Assembly: GCA_019058295.1 (NCBI GenBank)
Contig: JAHPZI010000030.1
Location: forward strand, 32,001 to 96,000
DNA length: 64,000 nucleotides
Direction of reading: 5' to 3'
From: Promethearchaeota archaeon
GTDB lineage: Archaea > Asgardarchaeota > Lokiarchaeia > Sigyniarchaeales > SOKP01
Both the position numbers and the translations under genes were made by a program. The notes below the pieces were generated by a model that was not told where the DNA came from, did no database searches, and worked only from the letters and a program-made list of their open reading frames with translations. Below are positions 21,598-24,185 of the stretch, one piece after another (within the stretch, counting starts at the first letter, position 1; every line of letters begins with the position of its first letter).

Positions 21598-22707
21598 CTA
21601 GTTAATTTCTAATAATTTCTTCTTAATAAAATCAAAACAGACTTGAATGGGATTTTCAAATTTATTAATTTTTTCACTAAATGACAAATTGAATCTATCA
21701 CTAGAAGGTGTTTGACTAAGAATCTCGGTTGATCTTTCAATTATTTTTTCTGGGTCTTTAATATGTTTTAAAGGAAAGCCGTTTTCTATCAAAAAATTTT
21801 CTTGTGGTGCTGTATCTCCTGGAAAATATTCTATACTTGGTACATTTAAAAGACTCGATTCGCGGACGATAGTGCCTCCACCACTTATTATTAATGCTCC
21901 ATAAAAACAAAGATCGACTGAATTTGATAAATAACGAGTGATTACAACATTTTTATTACCTGAAAAATTCTTAAGTTTACTTCTTAGAAAGTTTTCTTGT
22001 TTTTTCGTTCGGACTAATAGAAAATATTTGTGATTCGGAAATTCTTTATAAAGTTGTGGAAAGAACTCTGTTATTAATGTTTCTTCTGCCTTAAGTTTTT
22101 CAATAAAGTAAGACGCAAAACTCGGTTCGCTTCTTATTATGACATAATTGCCTTTTTCTAAATCAAATTTTTCTAAGATTTGAGGGTTCGGAGTATATTC
22201 TGAAAGCCATCCTATCTCATCAATCCCATTATAACGTATTAATTTACTAGGATCAGCATTCAGGCGTGTATACCATTCTTGAGGGACACATTGAGGTGTA
22301 ATAATTTTATCTAGAAATGGTAAAATTAATTTACAAACTGGTTCATTACGAGGTTCATCATTGAAACCTATTGATTGAAATTTTAGGCCATAAGCAATTC
22401 TAGTCCCTTCAACTGATGAGAATGTTACAAAATAATCTGGTTTAAACCGCTTAACAACTGGAAAAAGTTTTGATAATCGTTCTATATATTGTTTTAATTT
22501 ATCTTCTAATTTTTCCCCTCCATGTTTTCCAATTTTCTCATAATTTACTCCTTGATCGTCTAAAATTTGATAAGTAGAATCATAATCCCTTGCTGTTATT
22601 TTTAATTCAATCCCTTCATTATGAAACATATTAATTAAGGGAATAAACATTTGTGCCGTTTTAGGCTCTTCTATGTCAAGCCACAGCTTTTTACCCGAAA
22701 TAGTCAT
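21598..22707 (-). CDS. DUF354 GT-B-fold protein
   Basis: WLDI, ITARDY, IGKHGG, GGGTIVRESSLLNVPSI. Confidence 0.82.
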   Translation of the reverse strand: MTISGKKLWLDIEEPKTAQMFIPLINMFHNEGIELKITARDYDSTYQILDDQGVNYEKIGKHGGEKLEDKLKQYIERLSKLFPVVKRFKPDYFVTFSSVEGTRIAYGLKFQSIGFNDEPRNEPVCKLILPFLDKIITPQCVPQEWYTRLNADPSKLIRYNGIDEIGWLSEYTPNPQILEKFDLEKGNYVIIRSEPSFASYFIEKLKAEETLITEFFPQLYKEFPNHKYFLLVRTKKQENFLRSKLKNFSGNKNVVITRYLSNSVDLCFYGALIISGGGTIVRESSLLNVPSIEYFPGDTAPQENFLIENGFPLKHIKDPEKIIERSTEILSQTPSSDRFNLSFSEKINKFENPIQVCFDFIKKKLLEIN

Positions 22708-22748: not shown

Positions 22749-23504
22749 TTATTTCCAATCATCTGGAATTTTTTTTAATATTTTAGCAGGATTCCCAACT
22801 ATTATATCTCCTTCTTCTGTATTTTTATTAACGACTGCCCCAGCTCCTACGATTGTACCTTTTTTTAATCTTATACCAGGAAAAATGATCGAATTTGCAC
22901 CAAGTGATACGTTATCTTCAATTGTAGGGCCAATTAACTCGAACTCCTTGCGCAGCATATATTTATCATTAGTTAATTTACTATAGGGACCCATAAAAAC
23001 ATTATTACTAATTGAACAGAATAATGGAATATATGCACCTGTTTGAATATTTGCTTTAATTCCAATTGAAACATTACCATCAATAATACAGTTTGTACCA
23101 ATTAAAGAAGAATCCCCTATTTTTGTTTTTTCTCGGATCAATACATTATGACCCGTTTGGCATTTTGCTCCAATACGAACATTGGAATAAATTATTGTTC
23201 CAGCTCGAATTATGCAGTTTTCATCGATAATCACTTCTGGCCCTTCAAAATCAGTTATTGATTTTTTACTTGCTATTACTTCTTTTAATTGATTTCTTTG
23301 AAAATGGCCAATAATGCAATTTTCACCGATATAGGTGCCGGTTTTAATTATTGCTTTTCCATAGATTTTTACTCCTTTAGATATGTAAACATCTCTCCCA
23401 ATTGAAACCCCTTTACCAATTACGACAAAATCATCGATAAAAGCTTTTTTATTAATATTAGTTTCAGGGTGGATTATTGAGAAACTTTTGGTACCTTTTT
23501 CCAT
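22749..23504 (-). CDS. Hexapeptide-repeat (left-handed beta-helix) acetyltransferase
   Basis: Hexapeptide repeats, TNDKY, VGAGAVV, VGNPAK. Confidence 0.9.
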   Translation of the reverse strand: MEKGTKSFSIIHPETNINKKAFIDDFVVIGKGVSIGRDVYISKGVKIYGKAIIKTGTYIGENCIIGHFQRNQLKEVIASKKSITDFEGPEVIIDENCIIRAGTIIYSNVRIGAKCQTGHNVLIREKTKIGDSSLIGTNCIIDGNVSIGIKANIQTGAYIPLFCSISNNVFMGPYSKLTNDKYMLRKEFELIGPTIEDNVSLGANSIIFPGIRLKKGTIVGAGAVVNKNTEEGDIIVGNPAKILKKIPDDWK

Positions 23505-23567: not shown

Positions 23568-23861
23568 TTATTTTACGCATCGGCATGGAATAGAATTGCA
23601 TTTGCTACATTTATTTGGATACTTATCAAATAAAGCCTTTTCAACATCAATATCTAATAAATTTGCTAAAGAATTAGCCCAAGCAATTATATCTGCTATT
23701 TCTTCCGAAGCTTTTTCTTTATTAATTTTTTGATCCTTTATAATTCTTGCTAATTCTCCTATTTCTTCAACTAACCAAATAAATGTAGAATTTATCCCTC
23801 TTTTAAAATCTCGACTGAAATATATTTCTTTTATTTTTTTTTGAAAATCAGAGATTTTCAT
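23568..23861 (-). CDS. MazG-like nucleotide pyrophosphohydrolase
   Basis: WLVEEIGELA, EEIADIIAW, KYPNKC..C..IPC; ATG at 23861 preferred. Confidence 0.88.
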   Translation of the reverse strand: MKISDFQKKIKEIYFSRDFKRGINSTFIWLVEEIGELARIIKDQKINKEKASEEIADIIAWANSLANLLDIDVEKALFDKYPNKCSKCNSIPCRCVK

Positions 23862-23931
23862 AATTATTAAACCAACAAGTGCTCTCAATAAAATTATAAA
23901 ATAGAGAAATTTTGGTTTTGAATATTACTAT

Positions 23932-24185
23932 TTAGCCTCCTCCGGCTCCTGGAGTTAAAATCCAAGTAAACATTCCAAGATGTCCTAGAATTACGATTAA
24001 AATTAAGGTCGCTGCCAGCAATACCGTACTTATTGGACCAATTTTTACACCTATGCTTGAATCCTCAAAGAAGCGCATTTAATCTTTTAAGAGATTTATT
24101 CTGTTAAAATTAGACCTGCGCCTCCAAGTGGCATCGGACTAGTTTTACTTCTTCTTTTTTTCCTTCTTGACTGTCTACGAGACAT
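23932..24185 (-). CDS. secG: Preprotein translocase subunit Sec61beta/SecG, two exons: 24185-24111 and 24078-23932 (73 aa spliced)
   Basis: Spliced product MSRRQSRRKKRRSKTSPMPLGGAGL|MRFFEDSSIGVKIGPISTVLLAATLILIVILGHLGMFTWILTPGAGGG has the Sec61beta pattern AGLxRF.E...K..P..V plus a single TM; absent from the ORF track. Confidence 0.9.
24079..24110 (-). other. 32-nt bulge-helix-bulge intron in secG mRNA
   Basis: RNA GGAGGCGCA-GGUC-UA^A-UUUUAA-(13 nt)-UUAAAA-GAUU-AA^A-UGCGCUUCU; removal restores frame and motif. Confidence 0.88.

What the first reader, a model, noticed from the sequence alone, without database searches (positions are those of the whole stretch)
23932..24185. Bulge-helix-bulge intron interrupting the protein-coding Sec61beta/secG gene
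Seen in sequence: exon 1 (24185-24111) ends ...PMPLGGAGL and exon 2 (24078-23932) begins MRFFED, then KIGP plus one TM helix. Between them lie 32 nt that break the frame and contain an in-frame TAA. The pre-mRNA folds as a canonical BHB: a 9-bp exon-exon helix (GGAGGCGCA/UGCGCUUCU), a 4-bp central helix (GGUC/GAUU), two 3-nt bulges (UAA, AAA) and a 6-bp intron helix (UUUUAA/UUAAAA). Cutting after the second nucleotide of each bulge, the established rule for the archaeal tRNA splicing endonuclease EndA, joins CUA to AUG and rebuilds the conserved AGLxRF motif exactly. Established knowledge: BHB introns are typical of tRNA and rRNA, and the classic mRNA case is crenarchaeal cbf5. Inference: this Asgard archaeon splices a translocon mRNA with EndA/RtcB, and more such split genes may be hidden from gene callers. 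I cannot confirm from here that it is undescribed.
Basis: partly seen in the sequence, partly recalled or inferred. Interest (0 to 1): 0.95.

Follow-up and report, generated by a model that had tools for sequence, protein, structure and literature searches.

The report
tRNA-type intron splits Asgard Sec61beta gene
The only Sec61beta (protein-translocon subunit) gene of this Asgard archaeon is cut in two by a 32-base insert that has exactly the RNA shape the tRNA-splicing enzyme cuts. Removing it rebuilds the protein that relatives encode in one piece, so the mRNA almost certainly has to be spliced, which papers report for only one other archaeal gene (cbf5).

Summary
On the minus strand, exon 1 (24185-24111), a 32-nt insert (24110-24079) and exon 2 (24078-23932) form a strict hBHBh' motif: a 9-bp exon-exon helix, a 4-bp central helix, two 3-nt bulges and a 6-bp intron helix.

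Cutting after the second nucleotide of each bulge gives ...GGAGL|MRFFED.... This is the junction that 28 intronless orthologs I read encode continuously. In a 135-genome family survey, only this genome and one sister species are split.

The same intron (six variants, one of 30 nt) lies at this site in at least 13 independent assemblies, so it is not an artefact. Substitutions keep the pairing, and exon 1 remains under protein-level constraint.

The genome has two EndA paralogs, as in the (alpha-beta)2 type. RtcB is missing from this 79%-complete assembly but present in the sister species.

Two further strict BHB introns were verified: uL11 in this genome, and rtcB itself in two congeners.

No RNA data could be checked. 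The searchable literature reports coding-sequence BHB introns only for crenarchaeal cbf5. This scan's own AI notes had already flagged similar mRNA introns in other Asgard and DPANN genomes and in this genome.

Verdict: a real new member of a known kind. Confidence in splicing is about 0.85.

The parts
24111..24185 (-). Exon 1 of Sec61beta: ATG plus 24 codons, the basic N-terminal tail ending ...SPMPLGGAGL
   Evidence: Aligns residue for residue with the N-termini of intronless orthologs. Between the two intron-bearing lineages (G000 and L062), 19 of 25 residues are identical despite many synonymous codon changes.
24079..24110 (-). 32-nt BHB intron. It closes all three reading frames.
   Evidence: Present at the same site in G007 and in metagenome, MAG and Logan contigs L053, L054 and L061-L072. 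Not repeated elsewhere in the genome.
23932..24078 (-). Exon 2 of Sec61beta: MRFFEDSSIGVKIGP, one TM helix, and the stop at 23934-23932
   Evidence: Pfam PF03911 at E 4.4e-6, profile positions 6-36 of 41. Public gene calls list only this 48-aa piece.
24117..24125 (-). 5' strand of exon-exon helix h (GGAGGCGCA)
   Evidence: 9 of 9 pairs formed in all 7 distinct sequences. Intronless orthologs reach at most 4 consecutive pairs from the junction.
24069..24077 (-). 3' strand of helix h (UGCGCUUCU). It needs the Arg codon CGC.
   Evidence: Most intronless orthologs in the genus use AGA or AGG for this Arg.
24113..24116 (-). 5' strand of the 4-bp central helix H (GGUC)
   Evidence: Read from the sequence. 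100% of cells are paired in alignment A1, and G.U becomes G-C in L064.
24081..24084 (-). 3' strand of central helix H (GAUU)
24110..24112 (-). 5' bulge UA|A. The predicted cut is after 24111.
   Evidence: Cut position inferred from the established EndA rule. The junction is confirmed by orthologs.
24078..24080 (-). 3' bulge AA|A. The predicted cut is after 24079.
   Evidence: The bulge reads AUA in the 30-nt variant L061/L062.
24085..24109 (-). Intron hairpin h': 6 bp, a C.C mismatch, 3 bp and a 5-nt loop
   Evidence: The C.C mismatch becomes C-G in G007 and L061, and G-C in L064.

Best explanation
The insert at 24110-24079 is a bulge-helix-bulge intron in the Sec61beta pre-mRNA.

Proposed mechanism:
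1. The transcript folds so that the last 15 nt of exon 1, nt 2-10 of exon 2 and the ends of the insert build an hBHBh' motif.
2. The (alpha-beta)2 splicing endonuclease EndA, encoded at G000:C1 and G000:C26, cuts after the second nucleotide of each 3-nt bulge.
3. An RtcB-type ligase joins ...GGUCUA to AUGCGC.... The 32-nt intron is probably released as a circle.
4. The joined mRNA encodes a 73-residue tail-anchored Sec61beta.

Shown here: the motif; the exact match of the predicted junction to uninterrupted orthologs; the recurrence and structural conservation of the intron; the EndA genes; and sister introns in uL11 and rtcB.

Inferred: the cleavage, the ligation and the circular product.
For: - Geometry: strict hBHBh' with chance about 1e-7.
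- Junction: all 28 intronless relatives read directly encode ...G(G/A)AGL|(M/I)RF(F/Y)... continuously. In 135 family genomes, every match except G000 and G007 lies in an open frame of at least 69 aa.
- Not an artefact: the intron sits at the same site in G007 (94.5% identical over 3.1 kb), in two NCBI MAGs and in JGI, ENA and Logan contigs from at least 10 samples.
- Structure is kept: 96.3% of cells are paired, against 29-61% when the partners are slid. G-C becomes G.U in h, G.U becomes G-C in H, and an internal mismatch is repaired in two different ways.
- A 30-nt variant in a more distant lineage keeps h, H and the hairpin shape.
- The gene is alive. It is the only copy in the genome. G000 versus L054 shows 4 synonymous and 0 non-synonymous changes in exon 1. 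G000 versus L062 shows 26 of 50 conserved degenerate codons changed outside the BHB, but 6 of 7 BHB codons identical, and the seventh change keeps its pair.
- Machinery: two EndA paralogs, each with both Pfam domains. RtcB is present in G007 and four other relatives. tRNA introns of 13-54 nt are predicted in the same genome.
- Precedent in the same lineage: a strict 30-nt BHB intron in uL11 of G000, whose spliced product aligns without a gap to intronless G001 and G016. A 29-nt BHB intron lies inside the GYDINCG motif of rtcB in G002 and G006.
Against: - No RNA-level evidence was available. No spliced cDNA-like contig or full-length protein from the closest lineage was found; all hits at 92-96% identity are 48-aa exon-2 calls.
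- RtcB was not found in G000, which is 79% complete.
- The central helix has two G.U pairs and is absent from the MFE fold of G000.
- Covariation is thin because the sequences are close: 48 of 500 shuffles reach the observed score.
- Exon 2 starts with its own ATG, so a 48-aa product without splicing cannot be excluded.
- A genome-wide strict BHB-plus-ORF scan showed no excess over a mirrored-topology control.
Confidence: 0.85

Rival explanations
1. The gene was broken by a 32-bp insertion and is not spliced. Exon 2 is translated from its own ATG as a 48-residue tail-anchored protein that is still a usable Sec61beta. Exon 1 is a leftover or a separate 29-residue peptide.
For: Exon 2 begins with ATG and alone still reaches the Pfam cut-off (27.1 bits against 27). 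Public annotations call exactly this 48-aa protein. From general knowledge, the TM segment of eukaryotic Sec61beta carries much of its function; this was not tested here.
Against: - It does not explain a strict BHB whose cut sites coincide with the ortholog-defined ends (about 1e-7).
- It does not explain the retention of the exon-exon helix at synonymous sites.
- It does not explain protein-level conservation of exon 1 across intron-bearing lineages.
- That ATG is simply the conserved Met/Ile of the GL(M/I)RF motif.
Confidence: 0.08
2. Decaying pseudogene: the insert inactivated Sec61beta and the locus is drifting.
For: Sec61beta is dispensable in some eukaryotes (general knowledge). All three frames are closed inside the insert.
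Against: - It is the only copy in the genome.
- The same interrupted allele persists in at least 13 assemblies, across lineages whose neighbouring MazG protein has diverged to 69% identity.
- Both exons remain open, and synonymous changes dominate.
- No further frameshifts or stops are seen in any copy.
Confidence: 0.03
3. Translational recoding: the ribosome bypasses or frameshifts across the 32 nt, as in phage T4 gene 60.
For: There is a stop codon soon after the would-be take-off site and a hairpin in the gap, which superficially resembles gene 60.
Against: There is no matching take-off and landing codon pair in the right register. The triplet before AUG is UAA, and landing on the nearby UUA gives the wrong frame (read). 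Stops in all three frames rule out a simple +1 or -1 shift. Bypassing is unknown in archaea (general knowledge).
Confidence: 0.02
4. Assembly artefact or miniature transposon insertion (TA/TAA target duplication with short inverted ends).
For: The insert is flanked by TAA...TAA, and its ends (UUUUAA / UUAAAA) are inverted repeats.
Against: - It was assembled independently many times.
- No other copy of the 32-mer exists in the genome.
- 32 bp is below any known MITE size (general knowledge).
- The model does not explain the 9-bp exon-exon helix or the 4-bp/3-nt spacing.
Confidence: 0.01

Closest known systems
BHB intron in the cbf5 (pseudouridine synthase) pre-mRNA of Crenarchaeota (Watanabe 2002; Yoshinari 2006; Yokobori 2009, PMC2738675)
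   Same: - A short intron inside a protein-coding sequence, bounded by a bulge-helix-bulge motif.
- Cuts between the 2nd and 3rd bulge nucleotides restore a conserved motif.
- The host has a hetero-oligomeric (alpha-beta)2 endonuclease.
- The distribution among close relatives is patchy, implying gain and loss (paper read).
   Different: - A different gene (Sec61beta, not cbf5) and a different lineage (Asgard/Promethearchaeota, not Crenarchaeota).
- The motif here is a strict canonical hBHBh', whereas most cbf5 introns are described as unconventional or relaxed.
- Splicing of cbf5 was shown by cDNA and in vitro cleavage. Here it is only inferred.
BHB intron in the 5' UTR of Haloferax volcanii HVO_1309 mRNA (Schwarz 2020, PMC7714728)
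   Same: An mRNA substrate of the archaeal splicing endonuclease outside tRNA and rRNA.
   Different: It lies in the untranslated leader, so the coding sequence does not depend on splicing. Its host has the alpha'2-type enzyme, per PMC5829648, which assigns that type to the remaining (Cluster II) Euryarchaeota.
Archaeal tRNA introns (canonical 37/38 and non-canonical positions), abundant in Asgard tRNA genes (Marck and Grosjean 2003; bioRxiv 10.64898/2026.10.13.758758)
   Same: Same motif geometry and size range: aragorn predicts introns of 13-54 nt in this genome's tRNAs. The enzymes are presumably the same.
   Different: The exon half of the motif is made of codons instead of tRNA stems, so the structure is paid for in synonymous-site choice (GGC GCA ... 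CGC). The preprint does not treat mRNAs.
Unconventional cytoplasmic splicing of HAC1/XBP1 mRNA (IRE1 cut; RtcB ligation in metazoa)
   Same: Spliceosome-independent removal of a short frame-changing intron from an mRNA of the secretory pathway, with tRNA-ligase-type joining (general knowledge; review PMC13149111).
   Different: The endonuclease (IRE1) and the recognition motif (twin stem-loops) differ. No homology is claimed; the analogy is functional only.

Membership tests
Archaeal BHB (EndA-dependent) intron | [quoted passage not shown] | tested here: met
   Coordinates read: h 9 bp, H 4 bp (two G.U), bulges UAA and AAA, h' 6 bp. The topology matches the tRNA 37/38 arrangement. The BHB conformer is -17.0 kcal/mol against an MFE of -19.5.
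Archaeal BHB (EndA-dependent) intron | Cutting after the 2nd nucleotide of each bulge yields a functional, precisely joined product | tested here: met
   The predicted junction GGAGL|MRFFED equals the continuous sequence of 28 intronless orthologs. The Pfam domain spans the junction in them.
Archaeal BHB (EndA-dependent) intron | The host encodes the splicing endonuclease | tested here: met
   Two 201-aa paralogs carry PF02778 and PF01974 (108 and 70 bits) and are 28% identical to each other. The first has Tyr, His and Lys where I recall the catalytic triad; the second has no His at the aligned position (my reading, from memory of the motif, not checked against a reference).
Archaeal BHB (EndA-dependent) intron | The host encodes the 3'-phosphate RNA ligase RtcB | tested here: inconclusive
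   No hit in G000 by HMM or tblastn; the assembly is 79% complete. RtcB is present in the intron-bearing sister G007 (561 bits) and in 4 other relatives.
Archaeal BHB (EndA-dependent) intron | The structure is conserved among homologous introns (pair-preserving or compensatory change) | tested here: inconclusive
   In 7 distinct sequences, 96.3% of cells are paired against 29-61% when slid. There are 2 pairs with changes on both sides and 2 one-sided pair-preserving changes in h and H. Only 452 of 500 shuffles score lower, and the sequences are close relatives.
Archaeal BHB (EndA-dependent) intron | Spliced RNA and excised (circular) intron observed, with cleavage by EndA in vitro | not testable with these tools
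   No read-level or transcriptome data were available. No spliced or full-length version of the close lineage was found in the protein collection.
Sec61beta / SecG(archaeal) family, Pfam PF03911 | Match to the family profile and a single C-terminal TM segment after a basic cytosolic tail | tested here: met
   Exon 2 alone gives 27.1 bits (cut-off 27), profile 6-36. One-piece orthologs give 37-40 bits, profile 2-36. The joined product aligns with them end to end.

The most novel reading that the evidence does not exclude
This Promethearchaeota genus runs an obligatory mRNA-splicing layer on its tRNA-splicing machinery. Many protein genes are interrupted by 29-36-nt BHB introns, including essential ones (uL11, Sec61beta) and even the ligase gene rtcB. 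These introns are gained and lost between closely related species. Public gene calls therefore systematically truncate these genes, and the closest prokaryotic relatives of eukaryotes already depend on splicing of messenger RNAs.
Probability: 0.5. Interest if true: 0.85.

Novelty: new member of a known kind. Interest (0 to 1): 0.7.

Why it matters
In the papers I could search, splicing of an archaeal coding sequence by the tRNA endonuclease is documented for one gene only: cbf5, in Crenarchaeota.

A textbook-perfect BHB intron in the translocon subunit Sec61beta of an Asgard archaeon extends that mechanism to a new gene class and to the lineage closest to eukaryotes. So do sister introns in uL11 and in rtcB of congeners.

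Practical consequences:
- The public gene calls I examined annotate only the 48-aa second exon, so such genes are mis-annotated.
- The intron's patchy presence among near relatives offers a tractable case of recent intron gain and loss.
- The prediction is directly testable, through junction reads, a 32-nt circle and in vitro cleavage, with enzymes and substrate defined here.

Tried and rejected
- Genome-wide strict BHB scan. I scanned both strands (H 4 bp, h at least 4, h' at least 3, L 16-110) with open-frame and codon-usage filters, against a mirrored-topology control. Counts were the same at every threshold (27,257 against 27,256 raw; 7 against 4 at the best filter). I therefore cannot estimate how many mRNA introns the genome has this way. 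Only Sec61beta and uL11 stand out at the top of the ranking. A relaxed scan of contig C30 was swamped by gene-boundary false positives.\n- Other copies of the intron. blastn-short found only chance 10-16-nt matches in the genome.\n- RtcB in G000. None was found by Pfam HMM or by tblastn with a relative's RtcB.\n- Spliced or intronless version of the closest lineage. The closest one-piece allele (L075, 91% identical in exon 2) is a genomic contig with flanking genes from a different lineage, and it uses AGA for the Arg, so it is not a cDNA.\n- dN/dS. Counts are too small for a formal test, and one comparison (L053, exon 1) was mis-registered by an extra codon and ignored.\n- Translational bypass, simple frameshift, MITE insertion and assembly artefact were considered and rejected on sequence grounds (see the rival explanations).\n- Pfam on the divergent 611-aa neighbour gave no hit at E 1e-3 or better.

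Full report
**1. What is in the sequence**

On the minus strand an ORF starts at 24185. It encodes MSRRQSRRKKRRSKTSPMPLGGAGL and runs four codons further to a TAA. A second ORF starts at ATG 24078 and encodes MRFFEDSSIGVKIGP, one hydrophobic helix and a Gly-rich tail.

The second piece hits Pfam Sec61_beta, but only from profile position 6 onward: 27.1 bits against a cut-off of 27. Between the two pieces lie 32 nt (24110-24079). Stops close all three frames there: TAA at 24095-24093 in exon 1's frame, TAA at 24112-24110 in the +1 frame, and TAA at 24081-24079 directly before the ATG in exon 2's frame.

- h: 24125-24117 with 24077-24069, 9 bp
- H: 24116-24113 with 24084-24081, 4 bp, two of them G.U
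- bulges: 24112-24110 and 24080-24078
- h': 24109-24104 with 24090-24085, 6 bp, followed by a C.C mismatch, 3 bp and a 5-nt loop

On each strand the bulge lies 3' of the central helix. This is the arrangement in archaeal pre-tRNAs with an intron at 37/38 (established knowledge).

**2. More than chance**

RNAfold finds h and h' (-19.5 kcal/mol, z = -3.8, 0 of 200 shuffles as good). It leaves the weak central helix open. The full BHB conformer costs only 2.5 kcal/mol more, and in the G007 variant the central helix is part of the MFE.

I scanned both strands of the 3.2-Mb genome for strict BHB motifs with intron lengths 16-110. Motifs as strong as this one (h at least 9, h' at least 6) occur 25 times in 6.1e8 tests, about 4e-8 per test. 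The ends of the insert are fixed independently by orthologs (section 3), with three equivalent registers because of a repeated AT. The coincidence is therefore about 1e-7.

**3. Relatives**

The window is G000:C30:32001-96000. G000 has 30 contigs, is 79% complete and has 30.8% G+C. Its relatives are named Promethearchaeota archaeon, so it is an Asgard archaeon.

I read the locus in 30 genomes of the order. In 28 of them a single ORF encodes ...PMP.GGAGL(M/I)RF(F/Y).D.... This is exactly the product predicted by cutting after the second nucleotide of each bulge. Examples are the 74-aa proteins P0005, P0006 and P0009. In them the Pfam domain covers residues 23-57 (profile 2-36), so it spans the junction.

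In a survey of 135 genomes of the family, only G000 and G007 have the exon-2 match in a 48-aa open frame. All other matches lie in frames of at least 69 aa.

G007 is 94.5% identical to G000 over 3.1 kb and carries the insert at the same site with two substitutions.

**4. More copies of the intron**

A pattern search of metagenome contigs for the two exon ends separated by 16-46 nt found two contigs. The closest proteins in the 5.8-billion-protein collection (92-96% identity) are all 48-aa exon-2 calls, and three more 47-48-aa calls sit at 74-81% identity.

Fetching their contigs showed the intron in every one. Sources include NCBI MAGs GCA_019058335.1 and GCA_030605085.1, four JGI samples, five ENA assemblies and two Logan runs.

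There are six intron variants. One is 30 nt long, with an in-frame TAA, and comes from a lineage whose neighbouring MazG protein is only 69% identical to G000's. An assembly artefact is excluded.

**5. Is the structure conserved?**

On the alignment of seven distinct sequences (A1), 96.3% of cells form a standard pair in the proposed structure, against 29-61% when the 3' partners are slid by 1-3 columns.

The changes seen are of the kind a structure tolerates:
- G-C to G.U in h (L061)
- G.U to G-C in H (L064)
- A-U to U.G in h'
- the internal C.C mismatch turned into C-G (G007, L061) or G-C (L064)
- loop substitutions (L053, L068)

One change weakens h': U-A becomes G.A in G007. The sequences are close relatives, and 48 of 500 shuffles reach the observed covariation, so this is support rather than proof.

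The exon side tells the same story. Intron-bearing genes read GGA GGC GCA GGT CTA | ATG CGC TTY, giving 9 of 9 pairs. Intronless orthologs average 5.6 of 9 pairs with at most 4 consecutive, mostly because they use AGA or AGG for the Arg.

Between G000 and the distant intron-bearing L062, 26 of 50 conserved degenerate codons differ outside the motif. Inside it, 6 of 7 are identical and the seventh change keeps its pair. The probability is about 0.05, by my arithmetic.

**6. Is the gene alive?**

It is the only Sec61beta match in G000. Both exons are open in all copies. Exon 1 shows 4 synonymous and 0 non-synonymous differences between G000 and L054. Its protein is 19 of 25 residues identical between G000 and L062 despite many synonymous codon changes.

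Exon 1 has no obvious use unless it is joined to the membrane anchor (inference). This argues that the two exons are translated as one protein.

**7. Machinery**

G000 encodes two 201-aa EndA paralogs, each with the N-terminal and catalytic Pfam domains (108 and 70 bits). They are 28% identical to each other. The first has Tyr, His and Lys where I recall the catalytic triad, and the second has no His at the aligned position. This reading of the alignment rests on my memory of the motif and was not checked against a reference. It fits the alpha/beta pair of the (alpha-beta)2 enzyme.

That type is reported for Asgard archaea and is linked to broad substrate range and to cbf5 pre-mRNA splicing (PMC5829648; PMC2738675).

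RtcB was not found in G000. It is present in G007 and in four other relatives. Aragorn predicts introns of 13-54 nt in this genome's tRNAs.

**8. Not an isolated case**

My strict scan ranks a 30-nt motif in uL11 (G000:C30:126724-126695, minus strand; h 7, H 4, h' 6) next to Sec61beta. The Pfam L11_N match there contains an in-frame TAA and the region folds accordingly.

The spliced product reads ...GGPPIGPV|VGPTGINIKD... and aligns without a gap to the one-piece genes of G001 and G016. G007 shares the insert. G002 and G006 have it plus a second insert 12 codons long.

In G002 and G006 the rtcB gene itself is split inside GGVGY|DINCG by a 29-nt insert. It has a perfect 4-bp central helix (UUGG/CCAA), 3-nt bulges and a 9-bp hairpin.

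A MoxR-type ATPase gene at G000:C30:2337-2365 has a 29-nt candidate (H UCGG/CCGA), which I only glanced at.

The genome-wide scan showed no statistical excess of BHB-plus-open-frame hits over a mirrored-topology control. The size of the intron population therefore remains unknown.

**9. History**

The distribution, with MazG identity to G000 in brackets, is:
- present in the G000/G007 clade (88-100%)
- absent from L075 (79%)
- absent from G002/G006 (74-75%)
- present in L062 (69%)
- absent from other genus members

The 30- and 32-nt versions are clearly homologous. The pattern suggests one gain followed by precise losses, or lateral spread of the allele. A 100-residue marker cannot decide between them. 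L075 keeps the 5' half GGAGGCGCAGGTCTA but has AGA for the Arg, as expected if constraint was relaxed after a loss (inference).

**10. Rivals**

- Independent translation of exon 2 from its ATG remains possible, but it does not explain the motif or the constraint on exon 1.
- A pseudogene, ribosomal bypass, a frameshift, a MITE or an artefact are each contradicted by sequence facts (see the rival explanations).

**11. Known or new**

Papers in the searchable library state that the cbf5 intron is the only BHB intron in an archaeal coding sequence. The only other mRNA case is a 5'-UTR intron in Haloferax (PMC7714728).

The 2009 cbf5 paper notes that introns in other protein genes had been predicted but never confirmed. 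A 2026 preprint on Asgard tRNA introns does not mention mRNAs. Searches combining Sec61, Asgard, BHB, EndA and mRNA introns found nothing else.

Subscription-only papers are not covered. This scan's own AI notes already list similar candidates in other Asgard and DPANN genomes and in this genome. I used them as leads and tested only uL11 fully and MoxR partly.

**Verdict**

[quoted passage not shown] It is a new member of the kind defined by cbf5, in a new gene and a new lineage. RNA-level confirmation is outstanding.

Noticed in passing
G000:C30:126695-126724, minus strand (L055:1619-1648); outside the window: The ribosomal protein uL11 gene carries a strict 30-nt BHB intron (h 7, H 4, h' 6) with an in-frame TAA inside the GGPPIGP.VGP motif. 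The spliced product aligns without a gap to the one-piece uL11 of G001 and G016. G007 shares the insert.
   Followed up: yes
L073:290-318 (G002:C3) and L074:259-287 (G006:C13): In two congeners the RNA ligase gene rtcB is itself split, inside the conserved GGVGY|DINCG motif, by a 29-nt BHB insert (H UUGG/CCAA, bulges AUA and AAA, 9-bp hairpin). The differences between the two genomes preserve pairing. The enzyme thought to ligate spliced exons would then need splicing of its own mRNA.
   Followed up: partly
L059 and L060 (uL11 loci of G006 and G002): uL11 in these genomes has the insert at the G000 site plus a second insert of 12 codons with stops, between GG and ASGGPP. That makes two mini-introns in one small gene.
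   Followed up: no
G000:C30:2337-2365, plus strand; upstream of the window: A MoxR-type AAA ATPase gene changes frame here. A 29-nt candidate BHB (H UCGG/CCGA, bulges AAU and AAG, but an outer helix of only 2 bp) would join ...KPSHLIG to SFDPAITLKQGF....
   Followed up: partly
window:24288-26123:+: The 611-aa gene transcribed divergently from Sec61beta gave no Pfam hit at E 1e-3 or better. Its ortholog next to Sec61beta in L061/L062 carries a precomputed Ribophorin_I (PF04597) hit. If real, an OST-complex subunit and a translocon subunit share a divergent promoter region in several genomes of the genus.
   Followed up: partly
P0001-P0004, P0020, P0024, P0036 (public gene calls): Public annotations of this lineage list only the 47-48-aa exon-2 ORF as Sec61beta. 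The 25-residue N-terminal exon is lost from protein databases.
   Followed up: yes
L075:531-755: This is an intronless allele from an intermediate lineage (MazG 79% identical). It keeps the intron-type 5' exon sequence GGAGGCGCAGGTCTA but uses AGA for the following Arg, which may be a footprint of precise intron loss.
   Followed up: partly
window:21598-23888:-: Downstream on the same strand are a MazG-like pyrophosphohydrolase (23568-23888), a hexapeptide-repeat transferase (22749-23504) and a DUF354 protein (21598-22707). The MazG gene follows Sec61beta in every related contig examined.
   Followed up: no
G000 whole genome: Aragorn tRNA genes, 10 of them with introns of 13-54 nt. It also makes an implausible 'tRNA-Stop' call with a 2114-nt intron on C16, which is probably a false call or a split gene.
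   Followed up: no
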